42,419 nt of DNA from positions 1-42,419 of the IMG/VR virus record IMGVR_UViG_3300048855_000213; one strand, 5' to 3'. Below the pieces are notes generated by a model. It was not told the DNA's origin, searched no databases, and was given only the letters and a program-made list of their open reading frames with translations. The position numbers were made by a program, and so were the translations under genes. Below, one piece after another: positions 1,399 to 19,339 of this stretch; within the stretch, counting starts at the first letter, position 1; each line of letters starts with the position of its first letter. Source of the DNA: a virus (lineage: Duplodnaviria; Caudoviricetes).

Positions 1399-4361
1399 GC
1401 CGCCCTCGTCAGCGGCCGGATGTTGTCGATTGCCCCTGCCCGCAGCCCAGCGGCACTGATGCGCGGCGCGCCTCCGCTCACGTGCGCGGCGATGATGTCC
1501 GACACGTCATTACCGGTGGCCATGGAGATGAGCGACGCGGACCGCAGGCCGAGCTGGACGTAGTTACCCGCTTCCCAGCCGCCATCGTCGTCATTCTGAT
1601 AGGTGACGGCAGCCAGCGCCGCCCAGGTCCGCGCGTTGAAGTTGGGGGTCTTGATGTCCGACACGTTGCGGACGTACCAAGTCGCCTTCTTGAGTGGGTA
1701 ATCCGCCTGGCGGAACATGCCGAGGTGGAAGTTCGCCTTCCAGGCCAGATGGGTGGCGGCATCGACGCAGCCTGCCATCGCCCAGGCACAGTAGAGACCC
1801 GCGACAAGATGGTCGTCCATCCACCGCTTCAGGTCATAGACGGGATCGCTCTCGCAGCCAGCGTGGGCGCCAAAGACCACGTTCCCCTGCCCCGCCTGCC
1901 ATGCCGCCTGCTTGCCGACCAGATAGGCGGTGTTGATCTTCAGCAGGTTCCGCAGCGGCTCCCGGACAACGCTGGCGTCGTCCAGGATGTTGACGGCCAC
2001 CGCAACGTCGCGCAGGCGCCATCCCGCTTCACGCACCTGATAGCCCTGGCAGATCAACTGGTCATTGCCCTGGCCGTCGCGCGTGCGCCGGTTCGGCTCG
2101 GTGTCCATGACGGAGAAGCAAGCGAACTGCTCCACCCGATCACGCAGCCACATGCTTCCCGTCAGCACATACGCCAGGAAGGTAAGCTGCGGCTGGTGGG
2201 CCATGTCGATCTTCCAGCCGGTGCAGCCGGTGTCGGAGATCTGCGTGTTCGGAGGGTTGACGTTCAACTGCCCCGGCTGGCCACGGTAGTCCATCCACAT
2301 GCCCGGGTAGCCGACGCCGGGCAGGCTGTTCAGCGGACGGTTGTTCACGCTGTCATGGTGGCCCCAGGGGATAGCGCCTGAAGCCTCGGACTGCGCGATC
2401 ACTACCTTCCAGATGCGGCTGTCGCCGGTCATCAGCCAATCCGCCTGCACGCCGGTCAGGATGCCGAGGTCGGGCCGCTCGCCTGTGCCGCCCATGAACT
2501 TGTCGATGTTGGCGTTGGAGAGCGGCGCGCGGAAGCCAGCGGTGTCTGCTAGGCTGCCCCAGGCAGCGGCGGCGGTCTCGTTCAGACCCACATCATAGCC
2601 GTAAGGCGCCGTCCAGCCCTGCTGCGCCCACAGCGGCGCGTCCACCTGGATTTCGTGCAGCGGCGGGAAGGAAAGCGCGTTCTGGGTCGGCGTAAGGTCG
2701 GAGTAAAGCACCTTGCGGAAGGTCTGCGCGCGGGCGAAGCGGAGGTTGGTGAAGGAGAACACCGTCGTCCCGCTGTGCGTCAGAGAGCCGGTGACGTGCC
2801 AGGATGCCTGCGCCGTGCCGTCGTTGTAGAGGTTCTTTGTGGCATCGAACTCGTACTCGAGGGCCACCGCACCCGAGGCGTGCGCCCGCAGGTTCATCAT
2901 GACCCGGATGGCGCCGAGGATGCTCTTGGTGAAGCGTGCCTCAGTGCAGAGTGGGCCTTGCCGCCAGTATTTGGGTGCAGAGGCCGACCGCATGGTGGCC
3001 GGCGAGATGTCGAACGTCTGGTTGATGGCGGTAACGGCGCCGTTATCGGTGTAGATGTCGTCGGTATAGGTGCCGAAGGCGACGCCGTTCACGACGGTCA
3101 GAGAGCCCCCGAACATCGACACATTGGCGGTCATCACATCGACGTTGCTGCCAGTCGGCGCAGCGGCCTTCTTCAGCATGACCTTGCGGGATACGTTCAG
3201 GCCCGTGACGGCAGGCGCCGCGCCTGCAAGCAGGACGTGCTTGGACGAGCCATCGTCATGGGTCGATTTCACGTCCACCTGAACGGGCGTGTCGGTGCCG
3301 TCCAGCCTGTAGGCCATGCCCTCGCCCGGCTGGTGCAGGCCGCGTTGAAGCAGCAGACCCCAGGCGTGCTGACGGGCTGGGATGGACGCATTGGCGGTGA
3401 AGCCGAAGCCCTGAAGGTCACCGGCCGACGCGCGTTGCTGCATGATGGGGGCGTAGATCACCCCGGCGGTGGGCGTGGTCGGGATGCTCTTGGCGACGAA
3501 CAGGGCGGGGTCGTAGGAGCCGGCGGGCAGCGGGTCGGATGGCGGATCAACCGGCGGATCAACCACAACCGCCGTGAAGGTGAGCGCAAATCCGACCGTG
3601 TTCGGGCTGTTGACGGCCTCCTCCAAGGTATCCGCCACGGTGTACGCGGTAGATCCTGCGCTCACGGCCGCGCTGCCGCGAACCAGCGCCGTCTTGGCGC
3701 CATTGAACACCACGCGCCCGTCGTCCGGCGTGACTGTGCGGGTTGCTCCGGCAGGGACAGCGGATAGCGTCGTGAGGATGGTCCCATCCGCCACGTCGGT
3801 CGGCACAGAAGCCGAAGCCGGCGTTGCCGTGATGGGCGGCAGCGTGATGGGCGGTTCCACCACGGGAACGGCGGTGAACGTCATCGAGAACCCGGCAGAG
3901 CGCGGGCTGTTCGTGGCATTCGGGTGGGTGTCAGTGATGGTGTAGGCCGACGCGCCGACGCTGGCGGACGAGGCCCCCCGCACCACAGCAGTCTTGGCGG
4001 CGTTCAGGACCACGCGGCCATCAGCCGGGCTGATCGTGCGCGTGGCGCCGGCGGGGACGGCAGACAGGGCGGCAAACTGCGTGTTGGCCGCCACGTCCAC
4101 CTGAGCGGACGCCGTGACAGGAGTGATCACGAGCGCGGGCAGCGTCACCGGCGGATCAACCGGGGGAGGATCAACCGGCGGGGGCGTGACCGTGCCCGGA
4201 TGGGTCAGCAGCGCACCGCCAGCCTTGAGCAACTTGCCCTGGTAGGTGAGCATGTCGGTGCGTTCCGTCTTGGTCAGGGGAATGCTGCTGCTCAGCAGCT
4301 TCGTGAGCGCGGCGAACAGCGAGATGATCTGGCTGTTCGTCGTGCTAATGGACCTGCTCAT
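1395..4361 (-). CDS. 988-aa protein: two ~90-aa beta-rich repeats with Pro-rich linkers plus a C-terminal region resembling PcRGLX/YetA-type lyase-like proteins (alternative start 4253)
   Basis: Repeats TLP..TP..AS..LSAVPAGATRT..P.DGRVV.N.AKTA.VRG; PVQVDVKSTHDDGSSKHVLL, GGTGERPDLG, DMAHQP..AYVLTG and QVREAGWRLR motifs. Confidence 0.55.
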   Translation of the reverse strand: MSRSISTTNSQIISLFAALTKLLSSSIPLTKTERTDMLTYQGKLLKAGGALLTHPGTVTPPPVDPPPVDPPVTLPALVITPVTASAQVDVAANTQFAALSAVPAGATRTISPADGRVVLNAAKTAVVRGASSASVGASAYTITDTHPNATNSPRSAGFSMTFTAVPVVEPPITLPPITATPASASVPTDVADGTILTTLSAVPAGATRTVTPDDGRVVFNGAKTALVRGSAAVSAGSTAYTVADTLEEAVNSPNTVGFALTFTAVVVDPPVDPPSDPLPAGSYDPALFVAKSIPTTPTAGVIYAPIMQQRASAGDLQGFGFTANASIPARQHAWGLLLQRGLHQPGEGMAYRLDGTDTPVQVDVKSTHDDGSSKHVLLAGAAPAVTGLNVSRKVMLKKAAAPTGSNVDVMTANVSMFGGSLTVVNGVAFGTYTDDIYTDNGAVTAINQTFDISPATMRSASAPKYWRQGPLCTEARFTKSILGAIRVMMNLRAHASGAVALEYEFDATKNLYNDGTAQASWHVTGSLTHSGTTVFSFTNLRFARAQTFRKVLYSDLTPTQNALSFPPLHEIQVDAPLWAQQGWTAPYGYDVGLNETAAAAWGSLADTAGFRAPLSNANIDKFMGGTGERPDLGILTGVQADWLMTGDSRIWKVVIAQSEASGAIPWGHHDSVNNRPLNSLPGVGYPGMWMDYRGQPGQLNVNPPNTQISDTGCTGWKIDMAHQPQLTFLAYVLTGSMWLRDRVEQFACFSVMDTEPNRRTRDGQGNDQLICQGYQVREAGWRLRDVAVAVNILDDASVVREPLRNLLKINTAYLVGKQAAWQAGQGNVVFGAHAGCESDPVYDLKRWMDDHLVAGLYCAWAMAGCVDAATHLAWKANFHLGMFRQADYPLKKATWYVRNVSDIKTPNFNARTWAALAAVTYQNDDDGGWEAGNYVQLGLRSASLISMATGNDVSDIIAAHVSGGAPRISAAGLRAGAIDNIRPLTRAA
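3540..4190 (-). repeat. Intragenic tandem duplication of a ~90-codon domain flanked by PPVDPP linkers
   Basis: Two copies align with LSAVPAGATRT, DGRVV, AKTA.VRG, AYT..DT, NSP and TFTAV shared. Confidence 0.85.
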
Positions 4362-5830
4362 TGCTGCCCGACCAGTTTACGCAGGGTCGGTCGGCCAAAG
4401 CGGGCCGTCGCGTTGGTGGGCGCCACCGTGGAGTTGGTGATGAAGCGGAAGTTGAATTCGATCTTCGCCGTCGCCGGATCAACGACGGGCTGGACGACGT
4501 GCGGAGGGGTCCGCAGGACGCCAGTCCATGCTTCCGCCGGGAAGAAATACGAGGACAGCGTGTCCCCACTGTAGGTGTTGCGCGAAGCACCACCGGAACC
4601 ATCGTACTCGTTGATAACCAGCACCACGCCTGTAATGCGCGCGTCGGCCTCGACTTCTACTTCCACAGCGGCTTCCAGCACGTCTCCAACCGCGTACACG
4701 CCGCTGTTGTAGTTCAGTGTCTGAACCACCCGGAACTGCTCGCCCGCCGCACCAGTGGTGGCCGGAATTGTAATCTGCTGCCACTCGCCCAAACCATCGG
4801 CACGGGCAACCTTACTGAAGGTGGCGAGCACGCTGCCATTTACGCGAGAGCCAGACCAGCTAGCCGCGACGGAGCCGGAGTTAGAGTTCAGCGCACCGCC
4901 CGTGCCGATCAGGAAGCCATTCGTTAGAAGGTTCCCAGTCGGGTTCTCGGTGGCGTGATATACGTCGGACAGCTCGGTAAACAGGAAGTTGGAGGGGAAC
5001 AGGAAAGGCCGAACGGCTTCCGCCCATGCTTTTCCGACGTAGAACGCCCCCATCACGTTGGGGTGCAGAAGATCTGCGGTGACGCCGGTCTTTGCATACC
5101 CCGTGGAGAAGTTCATGAAGTACTTGCGTGCATCCGCAAAAATCATGCCTGGGGTACGGGATGCGAACAATTCGATCCAGCGGTTTACCTGGGCGACATA
5201 TCGCATCTTGAACGCAATCTGAGGGGCAGTGCCGCTGTATCCGCCGTCCTCGCGGGGCAGGATAGGAATGGCGACAACCGTAATCCCGGCCGCCAAGAGG
5301 GATAGGTACATAGCCTTCAGATTGTCGATGGTCTGCTGCGGCGTGAAGCCCGAAGACGGGTCATTTGTCCCCGCCAGCAACGACACGATGTCTGGCCCGG
5401 CAGAGAGAACGCTGGAGATACGCGCCAAGATCTGGGCGGAGGTTTCTCCGGACACGCCGAAGTTGTTGCTGATCGGGAAGTTTAGCGCCTGCCGGAGAAA
5501 GTTGTTCGCATGGGTCATGTACCCAATAGAGCGGTATCCTAGCGGCGTGGTGTTCTGGGCCGAGATGCTATCGCCATAGATAGCAACCGTCTTCTGGCCG
5601 GCCGAGAACTTCCTATCGACTGCACCGGGCGTCAGAACCTCGTCTTCCGCAGCAAGGCCAGTGATGGTCGACCCGTCCGGTGTGTAGCCGTCTGCGTATA
5701 GGCCAGCGCGCTCCAAGTCGGCCTTGCGCTTGCTATTGTCGGCGACGCCAGCGCCCCGCGCGCCGCGAGCAAGCGCCTGCGCCTCACCGTCAAGGCGCAC
5801 TTGTGCGCCACGGCCTGCATTCACTGCCAT
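4358..5830 (-). CDS. SGNH/GDSL esterase (putative polysaccharide O-acetylesterase) with N-terminal RGAQVRL module
   Basis: Blocks GDSIS, GVSG, AGTND and DLLHP; first ~66 aa match the 18998..19339 product. Confidence 0.85.
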   Translation of the reverse strand: MAVNAGRGAQVRLDGEAQALARGARGAGVADNSKRKADLERAGLYADGYTPDGSTITGLAAEDEVLTPGAVDRKFSAGQKTVAIYGDSISAQNTTPLGYRSIGYMTHANNFLRQALNFPISNNFGVSGETSAQILARISSVLSAGPDIVSLLAGTNDPSSGFTPQQTIDNLKAMYLSLLAAGITVVAIPILPREDGGYSGTAPQIAFKMRYVAQVNRWIELFASRTPGMIFADARKYFMNFSTGYAKTGVTADLLHPNVMGAFYVGKAWAEAVRPFLFPSNFLFTELSDVYHATENPTGNLLTNGFLIGTGGALNSNSGSVAASWSGSRVNGSVLATFSKVARADGLGEWQQITIPATTGAAGEQFRVVQTLNYNSGVYAVGDVLEAAVEVEVEADARITGVVLVINEYDGSGGASRNTYSGDTLSSYFFPAEAWTGVLRTPPHVVQPVVDPATAKIEFNFRFITNSTVAPTNATARFGRPTLRKLVGQQ

Positions 5831-5900: not shown

Positions 5901-8132
5901 TCACAGCAGCACCTTTCCTGCGGTGACGCGGGCGAACCACGTCACGGCCAGGGAAGGGTCGCCTGTCACGAGGATCTTGAGGGCGCCTGCGGAGGCATCA
6001 GCCGAGACCACAGCATCCCAACCAGCGGCCACACCGGCGGACACCGTCGGGCTGGGGCCAACAAGCATGGAGGTGCCGGCGCCAGAGACGCGGCGGATCA
6101 GGCCGCTATAGGTGGCGTGGTAGAACTTGCTGGTGTCGGTGTCCGCGTAGCCGAACAGGTCGATGCGGTAGTCGAGCAGGCTATCCAGGTCGAGGACCAG
6201 CGATGCCGTGCCGGAAGGACCAGAAACCGCCAAAGACTTCGGTGTGGCATCCGTGGTCTTGGTCCCCAGGAAGAACAGGCTTTCCTGAGCATCGCCGGTC
6301 TTGGCCATCATCCAGCCGGCACGGGCTTGCTCGCCGGTCAGGGTCGTCCTGGCACGGGAACCGGTCGCTGATGAGCCAAGCGTGGTTGCTTGGACGTTGT
6401 TTCCGAGCGCCAGGGAGTTGATGCCGGACGCTGCCGCGTTGTTGCCCAGCGCGATGCCGCCGGATGCCGAAGACGACGTGCCAGGACCAATCGAGACCCC
6501 GAAGGCCTGAGAGGCATTGGCGCCGTGCCCGAACTGCACGGCTTTGAGCCCGCGCCCACCCGTCAGCGTGACGTTGGTATCGCCCGCCACCATGCCGTGG
6601 ACGGTATCCGTGCTGCGGGTCCAGCCGACCACAGGGGTATCCGTCGCGGTGGCATTGTACCCGCGCAGGCGGATGGTGTTGCTCCCGCCCGAATAGGTCA
6701 GGTCCACCAGCCCGAGATCGTTGTTGGTGAAGAAGCAGTCGATGTCGTTGTTGTAGGCGGCGAAGGAAGCCGACCCGACACGGATGCCCACGGCCTCGCG
6801 AGGCCCGATGTTCCCTGGGCTGCCCTTGACTTGGAGGACGTTGCCCGAGCTTTCGAGCAGCACGTTGGTGTCGCCCATGTAATTGTAGGTCAGCACGTTG
6901 GCCATCTGGTGGCCGCCGTCGCCGCCCAGCCGGATGTTCGCGGTCTTGCCAGTCTCGACGTGGGCATTCATCACCGTAGAGCCGCCCCCGTTCAGATTGA
7001 GGGCGTAGCGCATGTGGGGATCAGCGATGGCGCCGCCCCAGATGTTCACGGTGCCGATGCGCAGACCGAAGGCCGAGTAGACGCCATCGAATGTGTTGTC
7101 GGTGTTGATGCCAGCCCGGCGCACGTTGGCGCTTAGGACATGCATGTCCGAGACGGCGAGCCACAGGCCCTCTTCGCCTGTCATGTTCGTCAGCACACGC
7201 TCGATGTAGCCATTGAAGGGCGACGTGCCGACCGAACTGTTGCCGTATTCCAAGTGGATGCCCCGGCGCGCGGTGTTCTGCACCCGCACCATGAGGCGGA
7301 AGTTGCGGCCATAGACGGCGATGCCATGTCCCTGCCCGCCCTGGGCCGCCGTGTTGGCTGCGCGGTTGCCGTCCAGGGTGCCGTACCCGTCGAAGCCCCA
7401 ATCCGAGATGCCGGCCCCACTGTTCGTGCCGGTCAGGGTCTGGAAGCTCTCCCCCTCGAACATCGTGCAGTTGGCACCGTCCGCGAGCTTGATTACGGCG
7501 CGGCGATCCATGCTGATGTGAATGCCGGTGCGCAGGATCATCGTGCGGCTGATCACGTAGGGCGTGTTAGCCGCCTTGGGCCGGGGCACGCGGATCGTCG
7601 CCCCACCCTGCGCCGCGCCGTAGTCGATGGCGCGCTGGATAGCATTGCTCCAGTCCGCGTCCCCGGATCTCCAGAAGTTCCGGATCTGGAGTTCGTCATT
7701 GCTGATGGCGACCAACGCTCGGGGATCGCCGGCATTCGCATCGGCGACCGCAAGCGTGGTGGCACCCGTAACCTCGGCCAGTCGCGCTATTTGGCCGGGG
7801 AGCGTCGGCGCCGTCGCGATCTGAACGGCCTGAAGCTCCACCGCTCCCTCCAGCGCCTGCTGGACTGCTGCGGTTCCTGCTGTCGCGCCCGCCTCTATGG
7901 CAGCCTCGATGTTTGGCGCCTTTCCACCAGGCGCCAGAACCTCGTCTTTGGCCTCGTCGCCCGTGAGCGTGGAGCCATCAGGCGTGCTCCCATCGGCGTA
8001 GGCGCCAGACTGCTCAAGGAGGTGCTGCTGCAGCAGGGTATCGGCCAGCCGTGACGCGCCGCCGCCGCGAGCGACGCGCTGCAACTCGCCGTCCAGACGC
8101 ACCTGTGCGCCACGGCCCGGAGCAGATGCCAT
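5901..8132 (-). CDS. Right-handed beta-helix (pectate-lyase-fold) spike/depolymerase with YadA-head-like repeats and N-terminal RGAQVRL module
   Basis: DWSNAIQRAIDY..QGGATIRVP and LDGNRAAN beta-helix signatures; repeats such as GIALGNNAAASGINSLALG; first ~66 aa match the 18998..19339 product. Confidence 0.8.
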   Translation of the reverse strand: MASAPGRGAQVRLDGELQRVARGGGASRLADTLLQQHLLEQSGAYADGSTPDGSTLTGDEAKDEVLAPGGKAPNIEAAIEAGATAGTAAVQQALEGAVELQAVQIATAPTLPGQIARLAEVTGATTLAVADANAGDPRALVAISNDELQIRNFWRSGDADWSNAIQRAIDYGAAQGGATIRVPRPKAANTPYVISRTMILRTGIHISMDRRAVIKLADGANCTMFEGESFQTLTGTNSGAGISDWGFDGYGTLDGNRAANTAAQGGQGHGIAVYGRNFRLMVRVQNTARRGIHLEYGNSSVGTSPFNGYIERVLTNMTGEEGLWLAVSDMHVLSANVRRAGINTDNTFDGVYSAFGLRIGTVNIWGGAIADPHMRYALNLNGGGSTVMNAHVETGKTANIRLGGDGGHQMANVLTYNYMGDTNVLLESSGNVLQVKGSPGNIGPREAVGIRVGSASFAAYNNDIDCFFTNNDLGLVDLTYSGGSNTIRLRGYNATATDTPVVGWTRSTDTVHGMVAGDTNVTLTGGRGLKAVQFGHGANASQAFGVSIGPGTSSSASGGIALGNNAAASGINSLALGNNVQATTLGSSATGSRARTTLTGEQARAGWMMAKTGDAQESLFFLGTKTTDATPKSLAVSGPSGTASLVLDLDSLLDYRIDLFGYADTDTSKFYHATYSGLIRRVSGAGTSMLVGPSPTVSAGVAAGWDAVVSADASAGALKILVTGDPSLAVTWFARVTAGKVLL

Positions 8133-8396: not shown

Positions 8397-10045
8397 TCGG
8401 TCAGGCGGCCCACGGCCTGCTGAGTGAGCAGGTTGTTCCGCAGGCCGGTGATGGCGTCGCGTACGCCCGGCCTAACAGCCTGATTTCGCAGGTAAGTCTG
8501 CATCAGAGGATTGACGTAGGCCGCGCGGACTGCGGCCGGGAGCGCAAGGCCGGTCACCGCCCCAGCAGCAGCGCCCACCGGGCCGCCGATCAGCGCGCCA
8601 ACCGTTGATCCGCCAGCAGAGAGACCGCCGCCGGTGAGAAGCTGGTTCATCTGCGTGCGGCCGGCCGTGCCGCTATCCGGCGGCGCGCGCAGCACGCCTT
8701 GCCCGATGCGGGCCAACTCGTTCAGGTCGCCGCGCCCGAAGGCGTATCCGCCGCCGGTGCTCTGATCCAAGGCGCCACGCAGCGCCAGAGGGCTGATGTT
8801 GCCTTCCGCTGCGCCCGCACCCGCCCCGCCGGCAGCCTTCGCCGCCAGCATGAGGTTGGCATACTGGCGCCGGGCCTCGCGGAAGGCCTCCGCATCGTCG
8901 CCCGTGATGCTGTTGTCCATGCCCTCGCGCAGAGTATTGCGCAGGTCGCCGATGGCGTTGCGCAGGTCGCCGTTCGCCGTGCCCTTCATGCTGCGGCCGA
9001 GGGCGCTATCCAACTCGCGATAGAGCTGGCCCGGCACCTCGCCGTTCTCGTCTACCTGCCCCACGATCTGCATCATGCGCTCGCGGATCGGCCGGCTTAC
9101 CTCTGGCACAGAGAAGCGGCTGATCTCGTCTTCCTGCTGCGCCAGGCGGTTCAGCAGGTCGTCGTCAATGCGTAGGCGGTTGCGGCCTGCGATCTCCCCG
9201 ATGGTGCCGCCGATGCGTGCCCGCGCCTCGTTGAGCACTTCCGGCGCCGCGCTGTCCGCATCCACGCCAGCGCGCCGCAGCACCGCCCGGTTGAAGGCCC
9301 GCGCCTGCTCCTGCCCGAACGCCGCCTCGGCCCCAGACGTGCCGGGAAGCTGCTGAAAGGCTCCCTCCATGTTCTGAAGCGTGCGAGAGCCGGTCGCCTG
9401 CCCTGCCGAGAGGGGGATGCCTTCGCGCTCCGCAGCCTGAACCAGCGCCGCCCGTGCCGGGCTCAGGGTGTTCTGCACCGGCGAGATCAGCCGGGCACCG
9501 CCAGCCAGCCCGAGAGGCAGCGCCAGCGCCGTCGCCACACCGGCTAGCGGGCTATCGGTTGCCTCGGACACAGCGCCGCCAGCCGCTGCGCTGCCGACCT
9601 GGAGGCCGGGAAGCGCAGCAGCCTGTGTCGCCACCCGGTTCGCCAGTCCGCCGGCCTGGGACAGCCTTGCAACGCCAGCCGCCGGCACGAGGACCGTTGC
9701 CGCGTCGACAACGCCACGTCCCGCCCCACGCGCGCCTTCCTCCAGAGCGCCCTGTGGCACAGGAGGCTCGCCCGTGATGGAGCGGATGCCGCGCTGGATG
9801 CTGGCGGAGCCGCCGAATGCATCCTCTGGCACCGGCAGGCCCACGGCCCGGAGGCCGCGCCCCAGCAGGTCCACAGGGGCGCCAGCGACCTCGGCCAGAC
9901 GGTCATTGAAGCCCGATGCGGCCTGGACCGGGATGGCGGCTGCCTGCTCAAGAGCGCCACGGCCTTGCGTCGCTGGCTCGGCGTACCGCTCCCACGGCTT
10001 CGCATCGGCGGCAGGCTGGCTGTACCGCTCCCATGGCCCCGCCAT
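8393..10045 (-). CDS. DNA ejection/injection protein (third in the cluster)
   Basis: MAGPWERY..KPWERY start, Ala/Gly-rich, PDSGTAGR motif, hydrophobic C-terminal segment; position after the gp7-like gene. Confidence 0.7.
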   Translation of the reverse strand: MAGPWERYSQPAADAKPWERYAEPATQGRGALEQAAAIPVQAASGFNDRLAEVAGAPVDLLGRGLRAVGLPVPEDAFGGSASIQRGIRSITGEPPVPQGALEEGARGAGRGVVDAATVLVPAAGVARLSQAGGLANRVATQAAALPGLQVGSAAAGGAVSEATDSPLAGVATALALPLGLAGGARLISPVQNTLSPARAALVQAAEREGIPLSAGQATGSRTLQNMEGAFQQLPGTSGAEAAFGQEQARAFNRAVLRRAGVDADSAAPEVLNEARARIGGTIGEIAGRNRLRIDDDLLNRLAQQEDEISRFSVPEVSRPIRERMMQIVGQVDENGEVPGQLYRELDSALGRSMKGTANGDLRNAIGDLRNTLREGMDNSITGDDAEAFREARRQYANLMLAAKAAGGAGAGAAEGNISPLALRGALDQSTGGGYAFGRGDLNELARIGQGVLRAPPDSGTAGRTQMNQLLTGGGLSAGGSTVGALIGGPVGAAAGAVTGLALPAAVRAAYVNPLMQTYLRNQAVRPGVRDAITGLRNNLLTQQAVGRLTD

Positions 10046-11646: not shown

Positions 11647-11693
11647 GGTTGCTCCTTGTGTTACCGTAGGTTGCAGTTTGCTTGGAGAATTTG

Positions 11694-11909
11694 ATGCGAA
11701 GCGTTCTGTTGGTGTTGTGCCTGGCCGTGGCCGGCTGCGCTCAGTCTGAAATGATTGTCCTGCGCGACCCGGCGACAGGTCAGATCACCCGGTGCGAGAA
11801 GAACTCTGGCCCGTCGCTCTTCCCGATTGCTCAGACGATGATCGACAACTCGGCCGCTCGGTCCTGCGCGGCAGGCTATGAGGCCGCCGGCTGGCAGCGG
11901 ATGAACTAA
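11694..11909 (+). CDS. Small lipoprotein moron (possible superinfection exclusion)
   Basis: Signal peptide with lipobox VAGC, further Cys pair; GGAG RBS; TAGGTT box upstream; antisense within the ejection genes. Confidence 0.75.
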   Translation: MRSVLLVLCLAVAGCAQSEMIVLRDPATGQITRCEKNSGPSLFPIAQTMIDNSAARSCAAGYEAAGWQRMN

Positions 11910-12580
11910 TAGACCCCCGAGGTCGTGTCGCTGTAGACTGGCACCTGGGCATAGGTTGACTGCTGCGGCGCCAGAGCGTTGGTCCGCTGCTGGTACTGGT
12001 AGTTCTGGATGCCCTGGTTGACCGCGCTGCCGATGCCCGACGCGGCGTTGCCGTAGATGCTGGCCTGGGCAGAGCCGAGGGACGCCGCCGTCTGCGCCAC
12101 ACCCGCCGCCGTCTGCACCCCGGAAGCACCCACCTGCGCCGCCGAGTTCTGGCCCATCTGCGCCATGCCCATCAGGCGGTTGTAGTAGGTGCTGAATTCC
12201 TGATTGGCGAGGTTCTGGCCGAAGGTCTGCTCAGCCTCTCGCGTCGCGCCAGACTGGAGCAGCCCACGGGCCGCCGCGCCGCTGTCAATCGCCTTCAGGC
12301 CCTCGGACATCTGGAAGTCGTAGCCGGGCGATACCTTGAACTTCGCCATGGCGGCATCGGCTGCCGTCTGGCCGTTCAGACCCAGCAAGTCCTGCGTCGG
12401 CGCCAGTGCATTGCGGCCGGCCGTCGTCCAGGGCTCCAGGTCAGCCCGCATCATTTCCTGGGCTTGCGCCTGCGCGTCCGCAGCCGTCTGCGCTGCCTTT
12501 TTCGTGGCCTTGGACTGCTTGTTGGCGGCATACATCGTGCCGGCTGCGGCGACACCGGCGGCTGCGACTGCGAACGGCAT
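11906..12580 (-). CDS. P22 gp7-like DNA transfer (ejection) protein
   Basis: Hydrophobic Ala-rich N-terminus; SPGYDFQ..EG....SGAAARGLLQSGAT motif. Confidence 0.8.
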   Translation of the reverse strand: MPFAVAAAGVAAAGTMYAANKQSKATKKAAQTAADAQAQAQEMMRADLEPWTTAGRNALAPTQDLLGLNGQTAADAAMAKFKVSPGYDFQMSEGLKAIDSGAAARGLLQSGATREAEQTFGQNLANQEFSTYYNRLMGMAQMGQNSAAQVGASGVQTAAGVAQTAASLGSAQASIYGNAASGIGSAVNQGIQNYQYQQRTNALAPQQSTYAQVPVYSDTTSGVY

Positions 12581-12583
12581 GGA

Positions 12584-12958
12584 TCAGCCCTCCACCAGAT
12601 GGTGTTCTTCGTGGATCTCGGCGGCCTCGCCATGGGCCGCATTGTGGATGCACAGGATCACGGTCCCGGCCTCCAGCACCTCGAAGGCATGCTTCACGCG
12701 CGCCGGCACCCGCACGAGCCCCGGCGCCTTGGTGACCCCCATGTCCTCCCCGTCCTGCCAGACCCGCACCGAGCCCTGTGCGATGGCCGAGAGGTGGTCA
12801 TACGTGTGCGCGTGCTGGGGCACGATCATGCCCGCGGCGGGCATCACCCAGGGCTTCACCCACACGTCGCCATAGAGCGCCGCCTCCAGGCCTTCGGGCT
12901 GGCTCGCGTGGCGCGTCAGGGCCGTGGGGCACTCGGCGCAGTTTCCGTCGCAGGTCAT
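12584..12958 (-). CDS. Cupin-domain protein
   Basis: PQHAHTYDHLS and VPARVKHAF cupin motifs; CxxxCxxC at the N-terminus; ATGA-coupled to the upstream gene. Confidence 0.75.
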   Translation of the reverse strand: MTCDGNCAECPTALTRHASQPEGLEAALYGDVWVKPWVMPAAGMIVPQHAHTYDHLSAIAQGSVRVWQDGEDMGVTKAPGLVRVPARVKHAFEVLEAGTVILCIHNAAHGEAAEIHEEHHLVEG

Positions 12959-13515
12959 GCGGTCGCGTCCCTCAGGGTGATGATCAGGTTGATGCGCTCT
13001 TCGCCGCCGTCGTTGTGGACCGAGTGCGGCACGAGGTTGTCGAACTCCCAGACCTCGCCGGCCTGGAACACCACTTCCTCGTCCAGCGTCACGTTCCGGC
13101 AGCCAGGGTTGGTCCGCAGCGGGATGTAGAACTTGCGATTGAAGTGCCGTGCGGTCCAAGCCGCGCCGTCCGTGTGCGTCTTGACCTCGCCGCCCGGCGG
13201 AATGCGGGAGATGAGGCAGCCGCCGAGTTCCACGCCACGGAAGGTGCTCATGAGAGCGAAGGCCACGGGATGAACGGTCGGCAGTGCATCCCACGCCGGA
13301 TAGAAGGCCAGCAGGCCCGGAGCCAGATAGGCCTCTTTGCTCGTCAGCACCTCGCGCGGGAAGTAGCGGAGCCAGATGTCGGAGGTGCCGCGCATGGGGC
13401 TATCGTCACGATCCGTCCGCTCCCTGTGCTCGTCCCAGAGGTGCGGGGACGCATCGAGTTGCGCCAGGATCGGCCCGACGTCCAGGCCCTCATGCACGCG
13501 GGAGAAGTATTTCAT
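12955..13515 (-). CDS. Aspartyl/asparaginyl beta-hydroxylase-like 2OG-Fe(II) oxygenase
   Basis: RIPPGGEVKTHTD (HxD), GEVWEFDNLVPHSVHN (distal His), ERINLII (2OG-binding Arg). Confidence 0.85.
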   Translation of the reverse strand: MKYFSRVHEGLDVGPILAQLDASPHLWDEHRERTDRDDSPMRGTSDIWLRYFPREVLTSKEAYLAPGLLAFYPAWDALPTVHPVAFALMSTFRGVELGGCLISRIPPGGEVKTHTDGAAWTARHFNRKFYIPLRTNPGCRNVTLDEEVVFQAGEVWEFDNLVPHSVHNDGGEERINLIITLRDATA

Positions 13516-13832
13516 CTTGCCGCCACGATGAAGTTGAAGAGGCCCGTGTCCGCGTCGTCGGGAACATTGGGCAGGTTGAAGGTTGTGCTGCCGTCGCCGG
13601 CGCCGAAGGTCTCGCCGATCACGTCAAACAGGTCGGCGTAATCGGTGCGGGAGACGGCGCTACCGTCAGCGCGCAGCCAGCCTTCGGGCCCGGTCTCGGT
13701 GAATGCCTGCCGAGCCTCGCCGATGACGTAGGGCGCGCCCCGCATCTCCTGCCAGAAGTTGTACCAGACCCAAGATGGGAAAAGCTCGCCCGCCTGGGTA
13801 AGCTGCTCCTGCGGCCCTGGCATCTCCTGCAT
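13512..13832 (-). CDS. Short tail protein with a phage tail-collar domain
   Basis: PEGWLRADGSAVSRTDYADLFDVIGETFGAGDGSTTFNLP; ATG 1 nt after the upstream stop. Confidence 0.8.
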   Translation of the reverse strand: MQEMPGPQEQLTQAGELFPSWVWYNFWQEMRGAPYVIGEARQAFTETGPEGWLRADGSAVSRTDYADLFDVIGETFGAGDGSTTFNLPNVPDDADTGLFNFIVAAR

Positions 13833-13833
13833 G

Positions 13834-15225
13834 TCAGTGCTCCCCAGCGACGATATCTGCGGCGGCACCAAGCAGGGATACTTGGCTGGAGCCTTGGATT
13901 ACGAACCGGATGGTCCTCTGTCGAAAGCTGCCGAGCCGGTGCCAATGCAGGCGCGTTCGGTAGGCGTCGACGGCACCGGATGTGGCGAGACGGGGTGTGC
14001 TCCAGTTCCGCCCGCCGTCATCGGAATAGCTCATACTCACCACAACCGGAGGCGAGACGCCCACTTCCATCTCCAACTCCAGAGACGCCATGAAGGCGCG
14101 GCGCGTGTCAGCATAGATCGGCGGCAGGATGGCCGTGCGCTGAACCGGAAGGCCGCCTTCGGTGAACATCCGATGATCCAGGCGCCAGACGCGACCAGAG
14201 AAGGCGTCTCCGACAAGCTGGAAGTCGCCGAACCGCGCGCCGCACTGACCCTGCCACCGCTGATCCGCCGGGCCAGTGGACCGGTTGTGCCAGAGCTTCG
14301 TGGCGAAATCGTAGACCCAGGTTCGGCCCGCATCGGGAAAGGTGATGGCATATTGGACATGCCCGGCGTGGCTCAGCGAATAGCCGATGGTCAGCGGCTT
14401 CCCCGCGTAGTTGTTGATCTCCCGCTCGATGGCGTAGGTGGAAATCCGCTGCGGCTGCGTGCCGTTGGCCTGGTAGACGATCAGGTCGTCTCCCACCCAG
14501 CAGACCGAGTTATCCGCCACAGCCGATGACCGGTAGGCAAGCGTGCCAACCTCGATGACGGCGCCCGTCTGGCGCTGGAATGGGCTGGCCTTGACGCCCG
14601 TGCTGGCCCAGATCTCAATCGTCCTCTGCCCGAACAGCCAGAGCTGGCCGCTGAAGGCCTGGATGCCCAGTAGATTATCCGGCGCGCGCTCCTGCGTGGC
14701 GAAGTTCTTCGCGCCAAAGTTCGACCCGTCATAAAGCTCGGACCACCAGAAGCGCCCCGTTCCCATCTCCGAGATCACGAAGCGCCCGTCGAGGTAGGTG
14801 ACGCTGCTGGCTTCCGGCATGCCATCGCGCGTGACCAGAGAGAAACTGGCGTCGTCGCGCAGCAGGTAGAGCTTCGGCGGCACGCAGACCATCACCTCTC
14901 GGTCAGAACAGGCGATGGTGGAGAGGTAAGGCGAGCCGTCCGCCGCCCAGGTTCCGACTTGGACGGCCGAGCCGTTACCGGAGATCCGGAACAGCGCATT
15001 GCCCGAGACCGCGAAGGCCTCCGTGCGCTGCACTGCCAGGGCGTAGACTGGCGCTTCCCCCAGGTAGGCGAACTCGATCAGGCCCGGCGTGTTCCGGACG
15101 ACAAACGACGAGCGCGCGGTCGGGGGCTGCGGCTCCAGGTAGAGGTTGATCAGCTTCTCCTGCGATACCGCGCTGTTCTCCAGCGGGTAGCTCTGGCTCG
15201 CGAAGGGGATCTGCTTCACGGCCAT
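13834..15225 (-). CDS. P22 gp10-like tail hub / packaged-DNA stabilization protein
   Basis: INLYLE, TPGL, SVTYLDGRF, FATQERAPD, SYSDDGGRNWS and WHRLGSFRQR motifs; position. Confidence 0.85.
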   Translation of the reverse strand: MAVKQIPFASQSYPLENSAVSQEKLINLYLEPQPPTARSSFVVRNTPGLIEFAYLGEAPVYALAVQRTEAFAVSGNALFRISGNGSAVQVGTWAADGSPYLSTIACSDREVMVCVPPKLYLLRDDASFSLVTRDGMPEASSVTYLDGRFVISEMGTGRFWWSELYDGSNFGAKNFATQERAPDNLLGIQAFSGQLWLFGQRTIEIWASTGVKASPFQRQTGAVIEVGTLAYRSSAVADNSVCWVGDDLIVYQANGTQPQRISTYAIEREINNYAGKPLTIGYSLSHAGHVQYAITFPDAGRTWVYDFATKLWHNRSTGPADQRWQGQCGARFGDFQLVGDAFSGRVWRLDHRMFTEGGLPVQRTAILPPIYADTRRAFMASLELEMEVGVSPPVVVSMSYSDDGGRNWSTPRLATSGAVDAYRTRLHWHRLGSFRQRTIRFVIQGSSQVSLLGAAADIVAGEH

Positions 15226-15249
15226 GGGTTATGCCCACTTCATCATGGT

Positions 15250-16956
15250 TCACGTGACCTGACGGGCGAGAAGCTCGAAGACGGTCCCGCTCTCCAACTT
15301 GAACCGAACCACATGCGTCGCCGTGGCTCCAGCCGCAGGAATGGCAGCGCCATAGCGGAGTAGGCCGTCGCCCTTTGTAACCACGGCAAAATCAATATGA
15401 GCATCTGCGCCGTCCACGCGCACGGCCGGGAACTGCCCAGCCAATCCGCCCGTCAGACGCACCCAGTTGACGACCGGGCCTGTCGTATTGCCCACCTTGG
15501 CCGCGACGCCGTTGGCGTTGCCGATGTCCACCAGCGTGGATACGGGGGCCGTGATGGCCGTGATGTTGTCGTCTATCCCGTAGCAGCCCTGGACAATGAC
15601 CTGTTCGGCCGCAGCCTGGTTCACCAAGGGGCCGGTGAGATTGCCACTCAGATCCACACCGATGACCCGCACGCGCCGCGCGCCATTCTCGATCACGACA
15701 CCGTAACGCTGCCCACCGGTGCCGTTCTCGTTCGAGCCGACAGCGCCGCCCATCACCTCCACGCTCTCAGCGGTGCTGCGGATCACGATGCCATCGTAGG
15801 TTCCGATGGCCGACTGCGAGTTGCGCGCAATCGTCGGGGTGACGATGCGGATGCGCTTCCCGGCCAGTTCCATGCCGTGGTTGTTGCCACCGCCCACACG
15901 GCCTTCCCACAGGAAACCGTCTACCTTCGGACCGACATAGACACCAGCCGCCTCGGCGCGGCCCTGGACCCATCCGTTGCGGATGCGGATGTCGGCGCCA
16001 ATCTCGGCGCGCACGCCATGCCGGCCGGTGTTGTCGCTCTGGAAATCGTCGAGGAAAATGAAGCCGGGGTTGGAGTTCGCGACCGTGTTGCCCACGTCGA
16101 GGATGGCCAGGGCGTCTCGGGCCCGCACCACCTGGATGCTCTTCCCGGTCACGGTGCCCACGGCGCCGCTGATCACCAGACCATCGGCTTCCATGCCCGA
16201 GCCATTGGAGGCCGTGGTGTCGGCGCAGTCCCACTTCACGTTGTCGATGTTCCACAGGCCGCCGGCGTCGCCGACGTTGCCATGGAGCCGCAGGCAGTAG
16301 CCGCCCGGCTTCTTCGCGGAGATCGTGGCGCAGTTCATGTAACCGCCGCGCGACCCTACAGCGTCGATGCCGCGATTGAAGCCCAGGATGGAGATGTGCT
16401 CAAAGCGGGGGTTCTGGCACTGGTCGAGGACAATGGCCCGGCCGCTGCTGTATCCGACGTGCGAGATCAGCATGCGGGAGAAAGACGGGCGCCGCATGGC
16501 CCGACCGGCTAGCGTGGACGAGAACACGAACCCGTCACCGTCATGCGTGAAGGTGATCTTGGTCCCGTTGTCGCTGTTGCCGCCCTTGCCGTCGAAGCTG
16601 CAATTCGGCGTCCTGCCGTAGATCGGGCCAGAGAGGATGACGTTGCCGGCGGGCCACCTCAGGTCCACTCCAGCATCGAACGCCTTCTGGAGCGCATCGG
16701 TGTCGTCTGTCGTGCCGTTCGCCTTGACGCCGAAGTCCCGCACGTCCACGAATTCGCGGAGCTTGGCGGTGATTGTGCGCGGCACCGCGCCGGGTGCGCC
16801 GAGGCTGTAGACGGGGGCGGTGCCAGTCGCGTAATCCGCCAGGCGGAACGGCGTGAAGCGGTAGGCATTGGCGCCGTCATCCAGTGGGATGTAGCCGCCA
16901 TCCTGAAGCTGACCGGGGAAATCGACCAGGGACGAGATCTTAACCGCATCAGCCAT
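15250..16956 (-). CDS. Tailspike with pectate-lyase-like beta-helix
   Basis: RTITAKLREFVDVRDFGVKANGTTDDTDALQKA followed by beta-helix repeats. Confidence 0.85.
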   Translation of the reverse strand: MADAVKISSLVDFPGQLQDGGYIPLDDGANAYRFTPFRLADYATGTAPVYSLGAPGAVPRTITAKLREFVDVRDFGVKANGTTDDTDALQKAFDAGVDLRWPAGNVILSGPIYGRTPNCSFDGKGGNSDNGTKITFTHDGDGFVFSSTLAGRAMRRPSFSRMLISHVGYSSGRAIVLDQCQNPRFEHISILGFNRGIDAVGSRGGYMNCATISAKKPGGYCLRLHGNVGDAGGLWNIDNVKWDCADTTASNGSGMEADGLVISGAVGTVTGKSIQVVRARDALAILDVGNTVANSNPGFIFLDDFQSDNTGRHGVRAEIGADIRIRNGWVQGRAEAAGVYVGPKVDGFLWEGRVGGGNNHGMELAGKRIRIVTPTIARNSQSAIGTYDGIVIRSTAESVEVMGGAVGSNENGTGGQRYGVVIENGARRVRVIGVDLSGNLTGPLVNQAAAEQVIVQGCYGIDDNITAITAPVSTLVDIGNANGVAAKVGNTTGPVVNWVRLTGGLAGQFPAVRVDGADAHIDFAVVTKGDGLLRYGAAIPAAGATATHVVRFKLESGTVFELLARQVT

Positions 16957-17425
16957 GGAATTTCCCCTGCGGAATGGAAAGGTCGCCGGTGTAGGCGTCG
17001 TATGGGTTGGCGGCCGGCGTCACGAGATCCGTATCCACGGTGGTGCGGTATCCTTCCGCTGGAAGAATGTTGATCGCGCCTGAGGCGATGACAGCGTTGC
17101 GTCCTTCAGGGCCGAGATTGCAGCGCCACCACGCTTGTCCGAAGCGGTCGAACGTATCGCCCGCAGCGAAGTCGAAGCAGAGCGTGCCGGCCGCCAGATC
17201 CAGGAAGGTCGCGTCCCTCATGATCCAGGCGCTGCGGCCGAAGCTGACGCGGAAGAACGCCGACATGCCCAGCAGGTTCAGCGGCTCAGGGGCGCCATCT
17301 TCCTCATAGACCCGCAGAAGGATGCGAACCTCTTCCCCGGCGGTCATGATGAAGTTGCGCTGCGCCGGCGCGGCCAGCGGCGGAACCTGCCGCGCGACAT
17401 CGAAGGAGAGGACACGGCCGGGCAT
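16949..17425 (-). CDS. Hypothetical virion protein (beta-rich, possible spike adaptor)
   Basis: Coupled between the connector and tailspike; GEEVRILLRV..PLNLLG pattern. Confidence 0.6.
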   Translation of the reverse strand: MPGRVLSFDVARQVPPLAAPAQRNFIMTAGEEVRILLRVYEEDGAPEPLNLLGMSAFFRVSFGRSAWIMRDATFLDLAAGTLCFDFAAGDTFDRFGQAWWRCNLGPEGRNAVIASGAINILPAEGYRTTVDTDLVTPAANPYDAYTGDLSIPQGKFHG

Positions 17426-18993
17426 CAGAAATAGTCCACCCGCATGGGCTCGCCCGTCGCGGGGATGGCGTTCATTTTGGTGATCTGCATTTCACCGCCG
17501 GCCCAGGCATTCGGGTCAGGCTGCAGCCCTGCTTCGGGCGCCATCAGTGTGGCCGCCATCATCACATAGGGCTCCTCGGCTGCGGTCGGGATGTCGGTCA
17601 GCAGCCAGCGCGTCTTGCGGCGCGAGGCCAGATTGGCGTGCACAGCGCGCACCTTCTCGGCCGCAAGTGCCACACCCAGAGGGCCTGCCAGCAGGAGCCG
17701 GCGCGCCGCAGTCATGGCCGCATCCACAGAGGCGGGATCGAACTTGCCGCCGTAAACCGGGGCCAGCCGCGCCACGACAATGCCAACGATACCGTCCGCG
17801 TAGGCCGATGGGGTCTGGTCAATAGACCAGTTGGCCAAGCCCGCCGCCACGAGGGACGCATGCGCCCTCTCAACCTCTTCTTCGGCCTGCACCTGCGCCC
17901 GCCGCCCCTGCACAGAGGTGCGGATGCGCGCTAGGGCGGCGCTGTAGAGGTCCGGCGCTTCCGGCCTGCCCAGCATCGGCCCCAGCATGGCTGCCGCCGC
18001 CGCAATCATGTCATTAGCGACCGAGTGCGGGGTCGCATCGACGGTCCAGTCAGCGACGCCCATATCGGCCAGCGCGTCATGCACAGACCGCAGGGCATTC
18101 TGTGCCTCGGCCTGCCCCCTGGCGCCCAGCATCATCGCCATCAGGATGCGCTGCTCTGCGGCAGCGGGGTCGAGCTTGATGTCGGCGCTGTAGATCGGCG
18201 CTAGGTGGGCAGCCACCAGAACGGCGAGGTCCCCGGCAACGGCAGCAGGGATCACGTCCAGGGGCCAGTCAGCGATGCCACGGCGAGCCAGGGAGCCGTG
18301 CACCTCGGCAACCTTCGCCTCAGCCAAGGCCTGCCCACGGCCTCCCGTCAGCGCGGTGGCATGGGCCTCCTGCAGGGCGGAGGCGTAATTCTCCCGGGTC
18401 GAGGTGCGGCCGAACGCCTGGGCTGCCAGGTTGGCCGCAAGGATCTCGTAGATCTGCGCCATGTAGCGCGGAACCTCGTCCGGGCCCCATGTGGCGATGC
18501 CGGCCGCCACGAGCCGCTGGTGCACATCACCAACCGTCTGTACCGCAGACGCCTGAGCGGCAGCCGATGGCGCCTCGCTCTCATCAATCACGCCTAGCCG
18601 CATCAGGGTACGCGTTGCGAGCGCGGAGGCAGCAACCGTGCCTGTGACGGTGCCAGGGCCGGCCGGGTTCACACCAACGATGCGCAGCGCGCGTGCGGCC
18701 ACCTCGGCGGCAGTCACAGCGCCAGAAGTGGTTGGGGTCTGGGAGGCAGGAACGGGCATCACGCCGAGATGGCGCAGGACGCCCGCTCCCATGTCCGCCA
18801 GCGTCCTGCTGCCCGAGCCAGAAGCCCGGTCAGCAGTATCCACGACCGTGACGCCAAGGCGCCGCAGAGCTTGGGAAGCCATGCGCGCCTTGGTCGTCGT
18901 GGCAGTCGAGGTGGGGCGGTCAGAGCCCGCGACCAGGGACAGCCCCAGCCGACGCAGAACACGCTGTGCGAGGGCGTCCACGGTCACGGGCAT
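17425..18993 (-). CDS. P22 gp4-like head-tail connector, five-fold nested repeat
   Basis: Five LRRLGV-type helices followed by five VH..L...G...W....P units; C-terminal DYF; position after the capsid genes. Confidence 0.7.
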   Translation of the reverse strand: MPVTVDALAQRVLRRLGLSLVAGSDRPTSTATTTKARMASQALRRLGVTVVDTADRASGSGSRTLADMGAGVLRHLGVMPVPASQTPTTSGAVTAAEVAARALRIVGVNPAGPGTVTGTVAASALATRTLMRLGVIDESEAPSAAAQASAVQTVGDVHQRLVAAGIATWGPDEVPRYMAQIYEILAANLAAQAFGRTSTRENYASALQEAHATALTGGRGQALAEAKVAEVHGSLARRGIADWPLDVIPAAVAGDLAVLVAAHLAPIYSADIKLDPAAAEQRILMAMMLGARGQAEAQNALRSVHDALADMGVADWTVDATPHSVANDMIAAAAAMLGPMLGRPEAPDLYSAALARIRTSVQGRRAQVQAEEEVERAHASLVAAGLANWSIDQTPSAYADGIVGIVVARLAPVYGGKFDPASVDAAMTAARRLLLAGPLGVALAAEKVRAVHANLASRRKTRWLLTDIPTAAEEPYVMMAATLMAPEAGLQPDPNAWAGGEMQITKMNAIPATGEPMRVDYF

Positions 18994-18997
18994 CGGG

Positions 18998-19339
18998 TCA
19001 GCCCTTCTTGGCTCGGGGAACGGTCTTGGCGGTGTCGGGCGGCTCCTGCTCCTCCACCTTTACGCGCGTGGTGCCTTCCTCGGCCGGCACTTCGCCGTCC
19101 GCCTTGCCCTCGGTGGTCACCACCACGTCGGGCGCAGGCTTGCCGGTCAGCGTGGAGCCGTCCGGGGTGCTGCCATCGGCAACGGTCCCGTCCGCCTCCA
19201 GCGCCTTCTTCACGAGGGTGTTGTCCTCGATGTCGCCGCCCATGCCGCCACGCGCGGCCATCTGGGCTTCACCCGTCAGGCGGACCTGCGCGCCCCGGCT
19301 GGGGAAACGCGGGCCTTCCACCTTCACTTCATCGGCCAT
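18998..19339 (-). CDS. 113-aa capsid-adjacent protein (stand-alone RGAQVRL module; possible decoration/cement protein)
   Basis: AAGGAG RBS directly after the capsid stop; RGAQVRLTGEAQ..ARG...ADGSTPDGSTLTG; charged disordered tail. Confidence 0.75.
   Translation of the reverse strand: MADEVKVEGPRFPSRGAQVRLTGEAQMAARGGMGGDIEDNTLVKKALEADGTVADGSTPDGSTLTGKPAPDVVVTTEGKADGEVPAEEGTTRVKVEEQEPPDTAKTVPRAKKG

What the first reader, a model, noticed from the sequence alone, without database searches (positions are those of the whole stretch)
4358..19339. A shared ~60-aa module links the capsid-adjacent protein to two carbohydrate-active proteins: candidate virion display/anchor system
Seen: three proteins share an ungapped block. 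The 113-aa gene after the capsid (18998..19339) has RGAQVRLTGEAQMAARG-x22-ADGSTPDGSTLTG..DVV. The SGNH esterase (4358..5830) has RGAQVRLDGEAQALARG-x22-ADGYTPDGSTITG..DEV. The beta-helix protein (5901..8132) has RGAQVRLDGELQRVARG-x22-ADGSTPDGSTLTG..DEV. In the small gene the module is the only conserved-looking part. In the other two it is the extreme N-terminus, followed by unrelated catalytic domains. The canonical tailspike (15250..16956) lacks it. Established: the gene after the major capsid often encodes a decoration/cement protein, and phage spikes attach through N-terminal anchors. Inference: the module docks on the head, and the phage makes one blank and two cargo-loaded versions that share binding sites. 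This would coat the particle with a deacetylase and a depolymerase, a natural plug-and-play display tag. I do not recognise it as a named domain.
Basis: partly seen in the sequence, partly recalled or inferred. Interest (0 to 1): 0.88.

Follow-up and report, generated by a model that had tools for sequence, protein, structure and literature searches.

The report
New capsid clip carrying sugar enzymes
Three genes of this uncultured short-tailed phage start with the same unnamed ~62-residue piece, which in related phages stands in the gene slot of the usual capsid cement protein and is fused to many different sugar-enzyme and fibre domains, so it likely clips such cargo onto the phage head, a known strategy built on a new domain.

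Summary
The shared block is real: three copies, 35-37 of 62 residues identical, no fourth copy. It has no Pfam, PHROG, NCBIfam or PDB match, but 166 sequence clusters carry it. In all 69 long members it is the extreme N-terminus, followed by beta-helix, SGNH/SASA esterase, GH5, sialidase-like, lectin, cadherin or collagen cargo. A module gene lies between capsid and adaptor genes in 54 of 57 loci chosen by capsid protein alone; the 3 others hold a Pam1/GP4-type cement gene there. Cargo copies often sit among head genes and in none of 37 tailspike slots. Best reading (0.62): an outer-capsid anchor that replaced the ancestral cement and is reused for display. Binding itself is inferred, not shown. 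Corrections: the small gene is conserved over residues 5-93, and blank and cargo copies are two old subfamilies, so separate site classes are as likely as shared sites. The strategy is published (PhiM1 alpha-claw/alpha-paw, phi24B DUF1737-esterase), and this scan noted it on other domains, not this one. New variant of a known kind.

The parts
18998..19339 (-). Cargo-free member, 113 aa, first gene after the major capsid gene; conserved residues ~5-93, low-complexity tail
   Evidence: same slot in relatives
19112..19297 (-). Module copy 1 (residues 15-76 of the small protein)
   Evidence: AlphaFold2 gives two helices plus loops, pLDDT 79-89 over residues 21-70
5901..8132 (-). 743-aa fusion: module + Ala-rich linker + right-handed beta-helix (~135-520) + YadA-like repeats + C-terminal domain
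7929..8114 (-). Module copy 2 (residues 7-68 of the 743-aa protein)
4358..5830 (-). 490-aa fusion: module + SGNH/GDSL esterase domain (GDS 86, G 125, GTND 154, DLLHP 253) + C-terminal domain; residues 80-486 match phrog_6102
5627..5812 (-). Module copy 3 (residues 7-68 of the 490-aa protein)
19351..20478 (-). Major capsid protein (PF13252, phrog_334), related to solved capsids 9VYE, 7EEL (Pam1), 26DE and 8H89 (GP4); likely binding partner
17425..18993 (-). 522-aa gene in the head-tail adaptor slot, with nested ~104-aa repeats; rival docking site (adaptor identity inferred from position and from relatives)
15250..16956 (-). Canonical tailspike in the adaptor-gp10 slot; lacks the module (internal control)

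Best explanation
The ~62-residue module is an unnamed N-terminal domain of one clade of P22/Pam1-like podophages, and it likely binds the outside of the capsid. Shown: every sampled member of the clade with a complete capsid-adaptor interval has a module gene there, in the slot where sister phages keep their Pam1/GP4-type cement gene. A second subfamily of the module is fused in front of very diverse sugar-acting or adhesive domains. Inferred: the cargo-free protein is the high-copy decoration that took over from the lost cement. It is mostly helix and loop and likely completes its fold on the shell or as an oligomer. The cargo-type copies likely bind a related, probably lower-copy, class of capsid site and hold out an esterase and a beta-helix spike. 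These would strip acetyl groups from, and cut or grip, host or biofilm polysaccharide, while the true tailspike with its own N-terminus works at the tail.
For: (1) Slot: a module gene lies between capsid and adaptor/gp10 in 54 of 57 complete intervals among 91 loci fetched by capsid similarity only, and in 75 of 81 when module-selected loci are added. (2) Replacement: 0 of those 75 loci has a hit to the cement profile within the DNA held, while 4 of the 6 module-free loci have one in that slot. The Pam5 slot protein matches solved cements 7EEL_H (E 2e-9) and 8H89_J. Module-bearing capsid proteins are one side of a branch with SH-aLRT 100. (3) Architecture: in 69 of 69 long members the module starts within 5 residues of the N-terminus. 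34 of the 69 have a Pfam-labelled cargo: 19 beta-helix, 9 SGNH/SASA, and cadherin, collagen, Ig-like, LamG, BNR and GH5 once each as the main label (some below Pfam's cut-off). (4) Placement: of 24 full-length cargo-type module clusters, 15 lie among head genes (7 after the capsid gene, 4 between portal and scaffold, 4 just before the portal), 5 after the ejection genes, 4 unplaced; 0 of 37 adaptor-gp10 tailspike intervals hold one. Module-SGNH fusions are the first gene after the capsid gene in L042 and L046-L047. (5) Precedent in the same capsid family: phi24B hangs an esterase on a 54-residue capsid anchor (bioRxiv 10.64898/2026.04.10.717836, sections 8 and 11).
Against: No direct evidence of capsid contact or of presence in virions; no member is cultured (no hit in 50,697 phage records). 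The cement swap is one evolutionary event, not 75 independent ones, and the cement profile rests on only 4 sequences. Pan3 and CBW1004C-Prop1 have neither cement nor module, so the slot can be empty. The clade also has an enlarged adaptor-slot protein (mostly about 180-522 aa against 111 aa in two cement-bearing outgroups), a confound. In this window both cargo genes lie after the ejection genes, 11-14 kb from the capsid gene. Capsid-anchored loci reach only 10 kb, so that slot is under-counted. In the largest sub-clade the post-capsid protein keeps only the first half of the module while cargo copies keep all of it.
Confidence: 0.62

Rival explanations
1. The module docks at the neck or portal vertex, on the enlarged repeat-containing adaptor-slot protein or a collar, and carries extra spikes there; the blank copy would be a collar or adaptor ring subunit.
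For: The adaptor-slot gene follows the blank gene directly and is expanded in this clade in steps of ~104 aa (214, 314, ~420, 522). Collar proteins give extra fibre sites in DEV and GP4 (PMC13730344, passage). Many cargos are tail-fibre or tailspike types, which are usually trimers at the tail (established knowledge).
Against: No module gene in 37 tailspike intervals, and the tailspikes there carry their own different N-termini. Cargo copies insert before and after the portal gene. Repeat number does not follow module count (215-aa protein with three module genes in L042; 522 aa with three in the window). It leaves the loss of the cement unexplained.
Confidence: 0.2
2. The module is only an oligomerisation, folding or assembly-sorting tag; the blank protein acts during assembly (chaperone or internal scaffold-like) and the fusions are released at lysis or packed internally.
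For: The monomer model is only partly confident (mean pLDDT 67.5 and 68.9, pTM under 0.5). The blank proteins have acidic, Pro/Lys-rich disordered ends. The esterase cargo family is filed as a moron/lipase in PHROGs.
Against: Cargos such as collagen stalks, cadherin/Ig repeats, lectins and 500-900-aa spikes are surface-display types. A separate scaffold-slot gene is present. Some post-capsid copies carry a C-terminal domain matching virion structural PHROGs.
Confidence: 0.13
3. The N-termini are shared only because cargo genes were captured by recombination with a duplicated 5' gene end (a strong late translation start), and the module has no binding role in the fusions.
For: The module is always at the very start of fusions, and the two cargo genes share a similar upstream sequence.
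Against: Protein-level conservation of the same Gly/Asp/Arg positions over 166 clusters at 50% identity with synonymous DNA divergence. The cargo-type subfamily keeps its own signature residues. Such conservation implies selection on the protein.
Confidence: 0.05

Closest known systems
Pectobacterium phage PhiM1 alpha-claw (gp44) and alpha-paw (gp43) (PMC11440229, passages read)
   Same: Small helix-turn-helix motif shared by a blank and an extended paralogue in one podophage; both decorate the capsid. Closest match to the proposed design.
   Different: No sequence match of the module profile to any PDB chain and no fold match (inconclusive). T7-like capsid there, Pam1/GP4-like here. The alpha-paw cargo is one ~11-kDa helical arm; here cargos are 400-1900-aa enzymes and adhesins of many families. 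The PhiM1 paralogues bind different site classes (5:2).
phi24B gp84: DUF1737 (PF08410) capsid anchor + NanS-p/SASA esterase (bioRxiv 10.64898/2026.04.10.717836; abstract, passages, section 8, section 11 part 1 read)
   Same: ~55-residue N-terminal anchor on a capsid of the same protein family, fused to a carbohydrate esterase; the anchor also occurs alone (2528 single-domain, 481 with SASA, per the paper).
   Different: No PF08410 hit. DUF1737 is one helix plus three strands, hexameric at hexon centres, and coexists with the Ig-like cement. Here the cement is absent and the cargo range is far wider.
Pam1 gp6 / GP4 gp1 / A1002 gp49 / phi24B gp67 trimeric jelly-roll cement (PDB 7EEL_H, 8H89_J; PMC13730344 passages; the Pam1 paper itself not read)
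   Same: Same gene slot after the same family of capsid protein.
   Different: No homology to the module; ~140-160-aa beta-sandwich there, short helical module here; mutually exclusive in the loci examined.
crAss001 head fibres gp21 and gp29 (PMC10172136, passages); T4 Hoc, T5 pb10, N4 gp17, phi29 gp8.5 (PMC7602432, passages)
   Same: Short capsid-binding domain plus an outward-facing adhesion domain; two fibres using two pocket types in crAss001.
   Different: Different capsids; no sequence link found; cargo mostly non-enzymatic.

Membership tests
DUF1737 (PF08410) capsid anchor | Match to the PF08410 profile | tested here: not met
   No hit in the three window proteins at E<=0.05 or in 102 scanned homologues
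DUF1737 (PF08410) capsid anchor | One helix plus three antiparallel strands | tested here: inconclusive
   Models show two helices and no strands but mean pLDDT is only 67-69
DUF1737 (PF08410) capsid anchor | Hexamer bound at hexon centres | not testable with these tools
   Needs cryo-EM or a six-subunit capsomer model
Pam1/GP4-type jelly-roll cement | Gene directly after a PF13252 capsid gene | tested here: met
Pam1/GP4-type jelly-roll cement | Sequence homology to Pam1 gp6/GP4 gp1 | tested here: not met
   A four-sequence cement profile finds 5 loci, none with the module; the module profile has 0 PDB hits at E<=10 although 7EEL_H and 8H89_J are in the library
Pam1/GP4-type jelly-roll cement | Beta-sandwich fold, trimer at three-fold axes | tested here: inconclusive
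   No strands in the moderate-confidence model; 62 residues is short for this fold
PhiM1 alpha-claw/alpha-paw | Blank and cargo-bearing paralogues with one motif in one genome | tested here: met
PhiM1 alpha-claw/alpha-paw | Helix-turn-helix alpha-claw fold or sequence similarity | tested here: inconclusive
   Two predicted helices (7 and 14 residues); no sequence hit; I did not confirm that the PhiM1 chains are in the libraries searched
PhiM1 alpha-claw/alpha-paw | Homodimers across two-fold axes | not tested
   No oligomer model was run
P22 tailspike head-binding domain (PF09008) | Match to the PF09008 profile | tested here: not met
   No hit
SGNH/GDSL hydrolase (490-aa cargo) | Blocks I, II, III, V with Ser, Gly, Asn, Asp-x-x-His | tested here: met
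   PF13472 E 1.7e-20 above cut-off; motifs at 86, 125, 154, 253
SGNH/GDSL hydrolase (490-aa cargo) | Polysaccharide O-deacetylase activity | not testable with these tools
   Substrate inferred only
Beta-helix tailspike depolymerase (743-aa cargo) | Right-handed parallel beta-helix | tested here: met
   Atlas model TM 0.76-0.84 to pectate-lyase-like and tailspike models (both sides predicted); full-length similarity to P0098, which has PF12708 at E 3e-14
Beta-helix tailspike depolymerase (743-aa cargo) | Catalytic groove and polysaccharide cleavage | not tested
   No catalytic residues assigned

The most novel reading that the evidence does not exclude
In this clade the capsid cement was replaced outright by a small clip that serves as both stabiliser and universal socket. 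Each particle carries a mixed coat of blank clips and several different full-size enzymes (esterase, beta-helix depolymerase, and in relatives GH5, sialidase-like and lectin domains) competing for capsid sites, so the head itself is a tunable multi-enzyme device for boring through capsule or biofilm, and the 62-residue tag would display 900-aa cargos on demand.
Probability: 0.3. Interest if true: 0.75.

Novelty: new variant of a known kind. Interest (0 to 1): 0.5.

Why it matters
It names a function-bearing domain for about 166 sequence clusters with no annotation, and predicts that many genes now labelled tailspike, lipase or tail fibre in these phages sit on the head. If right, it shows a non-homologous swap of a capsid cement for a helical display clip within the Pam1/GP4/phi24B capsid family. 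It would extend head display from single esterases or Ig domains to a wide enzyme repertoire, and offer a short natural tag that tolerates very large cargos.

Tried and rejected
Complex prediction of two capsid subunits with residues 4-96 of the small protein gave no answer (score 0.00, partner fold uncertain, controls not run); it is no evidence either way. Fold searches with both monomer models found nothing (best Z 2.3 and 2.2 in the wide PDB search; no viral match under E 1.4; no Foldseek PDB match), which does not show the fold is new. The Atlas search of the small protein gave only hits under 0.8. Pfam, PHROG and NCBIfam scans of the module gave no family. No module in 50,697 phage records or by pattern scan of GTDB genomes (a divergent copy was later found by profile in four MAG contigs, L126-L128 and L130). 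A viral-contig scan with the 123-row alignment could not be run for lack of a conserved stretch. Rows dropped: P0197 and P0220 of the 150 listed profile hits were unrelated repeat proteins; 16 weaker hits were not listed; 24 of 225 modules under 55 residues were left out of the tree; 34 of 91 capsid-anchored loci lacked a complete interval. My script label 'half-cargo-type' was mostly the divergent post-capsid form and is not counted as cargo. Reversed-ORF control for the module profile: 0 hits. Literature searches found no description of this module; the library lacks most subscription papers, and PMC9796965 (passages) was not relevant. Rejected: chance similarity, membership in DUF1737 or the jelly-roll cements, and recent in-genome duplication as the source of the cargo copies. 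Host not established: capsid relatives sit in contigs binned to Acetobacteraceae but also to unrelated taxa.
Full report
Setting. The window is a whole 42.4-kb contig of a short-tailed phage with a P22-like portal, gp10-like stabilisation protein and ejection proteins. Its capsid protein belongs to PF13252/phrog_334. The nearest isolates are CBW1004C-Prop1 (43%) and the cyanophages Pan3, Pam5 and Pam1 (33-38%); solved relatives are 9VYE, 7EEL, 26DE and 8H89. The host is not established.

Observation. The 568-aa tailspike lacks the block. The 490-aa protein is a complete SGNH hydrolase after the module. The 743-aa protein is a predicted beta-helix and aligns over its full length with a module-bearing homologue that has the pectate-lyase-like Pfam domain. 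One detail is wrong: the small protein is conserved from about residue 5 to 93 in 55 homologues.

The family. The module matches no Pfam, PHROG or NCBIfam model and no PDB chain. A 33-sequence profile found 166 clusters at 50% identity among 1.84 billion proteins. Pooling searches gave 227 proteins, 225 with the module: 116 with a tail of 60 residues or less, 40 with 61-200, and 69 with more than 200. In all 69 long ones the module starts within five residues of the N-terminus. All 69 were scanned; 34 have a Pfam-labelled cargo (19 beta-helix types, 9 SGNH/SASA, and one each led by cadherin, collagen, Ig-like, LamG, BNR and GH5; some hits are below curated cut-offs). Several short fusions carry tail-fibre segments.

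Link to the head genes. To avoid circularity I fetched loci by capsid protein alone (91 loci). Of the 57 with a complete capsid-to-adaptor/gp10 interval, 54 hold a module gene in it. The three that do not are prophages of Variovorax, Pandoraea and Achromobacter, and each has a Pam5-type cement gene there. With all loci the count is 75 of 81 (19 of 25 groups at 90% capsid identity). None of the 75 has a cement hit in the DNA held; 4 of the 6 module-free loci do, and 2 have neither. The Pam5 protein is a true relative of the solved Pam1 and GP4 cements. On a capsid tree of 25 rows the 18 module-bearing ones are one side of a branch with SH-aLRT 100. So this is one replacement event, a single data point in evolutionary terms, but a complete one.

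Where cargo copies sit. Of 24 clusters of full-length cargo-type modules, 15 lie among head genes, 5 after the ejection genes (two of them the window's own) and 4 could not be placed. None lies in 37 adaptor-gp10 intervals, where the tailspikes are. In L042, L046 and L047 a module-SGNH fusion is the first gene after the capsid gene, and L042 has three module genes in a row. The 10-kb flanks under-sample the post-ejection slot, so 15 against 5 is not a true ratio; the empty tailspike slot is not affected.

Two subfamilies. On a 66-column tree of 201 modules, the 77 with an N-terminal extension (the post-capsid type) need 4 label changes against 61.6 shuffled, though the dividing branch has only 87 support. 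Cargo copies therefore are not fresh duplicates of each genome's blank gene. In the largest sub-clade the post-capsid gene keeps only the first half of the module, sometimes with a C-terminal domain matching virion structural PHROGs, while cargo copies keep the whole module. The shared core is thus the first ~35 residues. This fits two related site classes at least as well as one shared site.

Structure. AlphaFold2 monomers give two helices joined by a loop and followed by Gly/Asp-rich loops, mean pLDDT 67.5 and 68.9, and 79-89 over the core. That fits a piece that folds on a partner (inference). No structural evidence for the partner was obtained.

Mechanism. Shown: family, architecture, gene slot, exclusivity with the cement, placement of cargo genes. 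Inferred: outer-capsid binding; the blank protein as high-copy decoration in place of the cement; cargo copies at fewer sites holding an esterase and a beta-helix outward to act on surface polysaccharide (0.62). The main rival is docking at the neck (0.20), because the adaptor-slot protein is enlarged in the same clade in steps of about 104 residues and collars give fibre sites in DEV and GP4 (PMC13730344, passage). Non-display roles take the rest.

Comparison. PhiM1 has a blank alpha-claw and an extended alpha-paw sharing a helix-turn-helix motif at different two-fold sites, 5:2 (PMC11440229, passages). phi24B, with the same capsid family, binds the DUF1737 domain of an esterase as a hexamer at hexon centres, and the enzyme part appears to be cut off (bioRxiv 10.64898/2026.04.10.717836; its supplement on domain architectures could not be seen). 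crAss001 uses two head fibres in two pocket types (PMC10172136, passages). The module is not DUF1737 or a jelly-roll cement by profile, and its relation to the alpha-claw is unresolved. It likely works like these but is not shown to be a member of any. Eight literature searches found no account of it. Earlier notes of this scan describe the same strategy on other domains and none on this sequence or genome; they gave two paper leads and are not counted as support.

Verdict. A real and well-supported new domain family with a probable head-display role. The strategy is known; the new points are the domain, the loss of the ancestral cement in the whole sampled clade, and the breadth and size of enzyme cargo. 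Interest 0.5; 0.75 if a mixed multi-enzyme head coat is shown.

Noticed in passing
window 17425-18993 (-); L039:13852-14496, L002, L009:10716-11975, L056:11464-12735: The adaptor-slot protein has nested repeats and comes in lengths of about 111 (cement-bearing outgroups), 214, 314, 420 and 522 aa, steps of ~104 aa; possibly a telescoping neck or portal-wing extension.
   Followed up: partly
L049:634-838, L060:4254-4465, L069:2536-2747; same break in L053, L057-L059, L063, L068, L074, L129: The major capsid gene of 11 related loci is interrupted near codon 331 by ~280 bases; Rfam calls a group I intron above the gathering score in 3 of 3 tested. The window's gene is uninterrupted.
   Followed up: partly
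window 12955-13515 and 12584-12955 (-): An Asp/Asn beta-hydroxylase-like gene (PF05118) and a cupin gene sit between the gp10/collar genes and the first ejection gene, and are conserved there in many relatives; they might modify virion proteins.
   Followed up: no
window 1395-4361 (-); L040:10319-14131; L010:11408-13594: A 988-aa protein without Pfam/PHROG match follows the module-bearing genes here and in two relatives; the L040 homologue has a weak PcRGLX-like RIFT barrel hit, so it may be another polysaccharide lyase.
   Followed up: partly
L041:9426-9644 and 9641-11572; L040:9989-10318 and 10319-14131: Module-only genes directly abut a large cargo-like gene (a GH54 arabinofuranosidase-like domain in L041), raising the possibility of frameshift/readthrough fusion or non-covalent loading.
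   Followed up: no
L006, L007, L009:9403-9966; L052:6756-7001; L131-L134: A second small unnamed gene family (Pam5_07-like) lies between capsid/cement and adaptor in cement-bearing phages and persists beside the module in the deepest module-bearing branch.
   Followed up: partly
window 20499-21173 (+) and 32121-32621 (-): An HNH-AP2 endonuclease gene is inserted antisense between scaffold and capsid genes; a second ORF looks similar by eye (not scanned). Relatives often carry HNH-like genes right after the capsid gene.
   Followed up: no
protein P0195 (675 aa): One module-bearing protein combines a beta-helix with a Baseplate_J hit (E 1e-12), odd for a podophage; context unknown.
   Followed up: no
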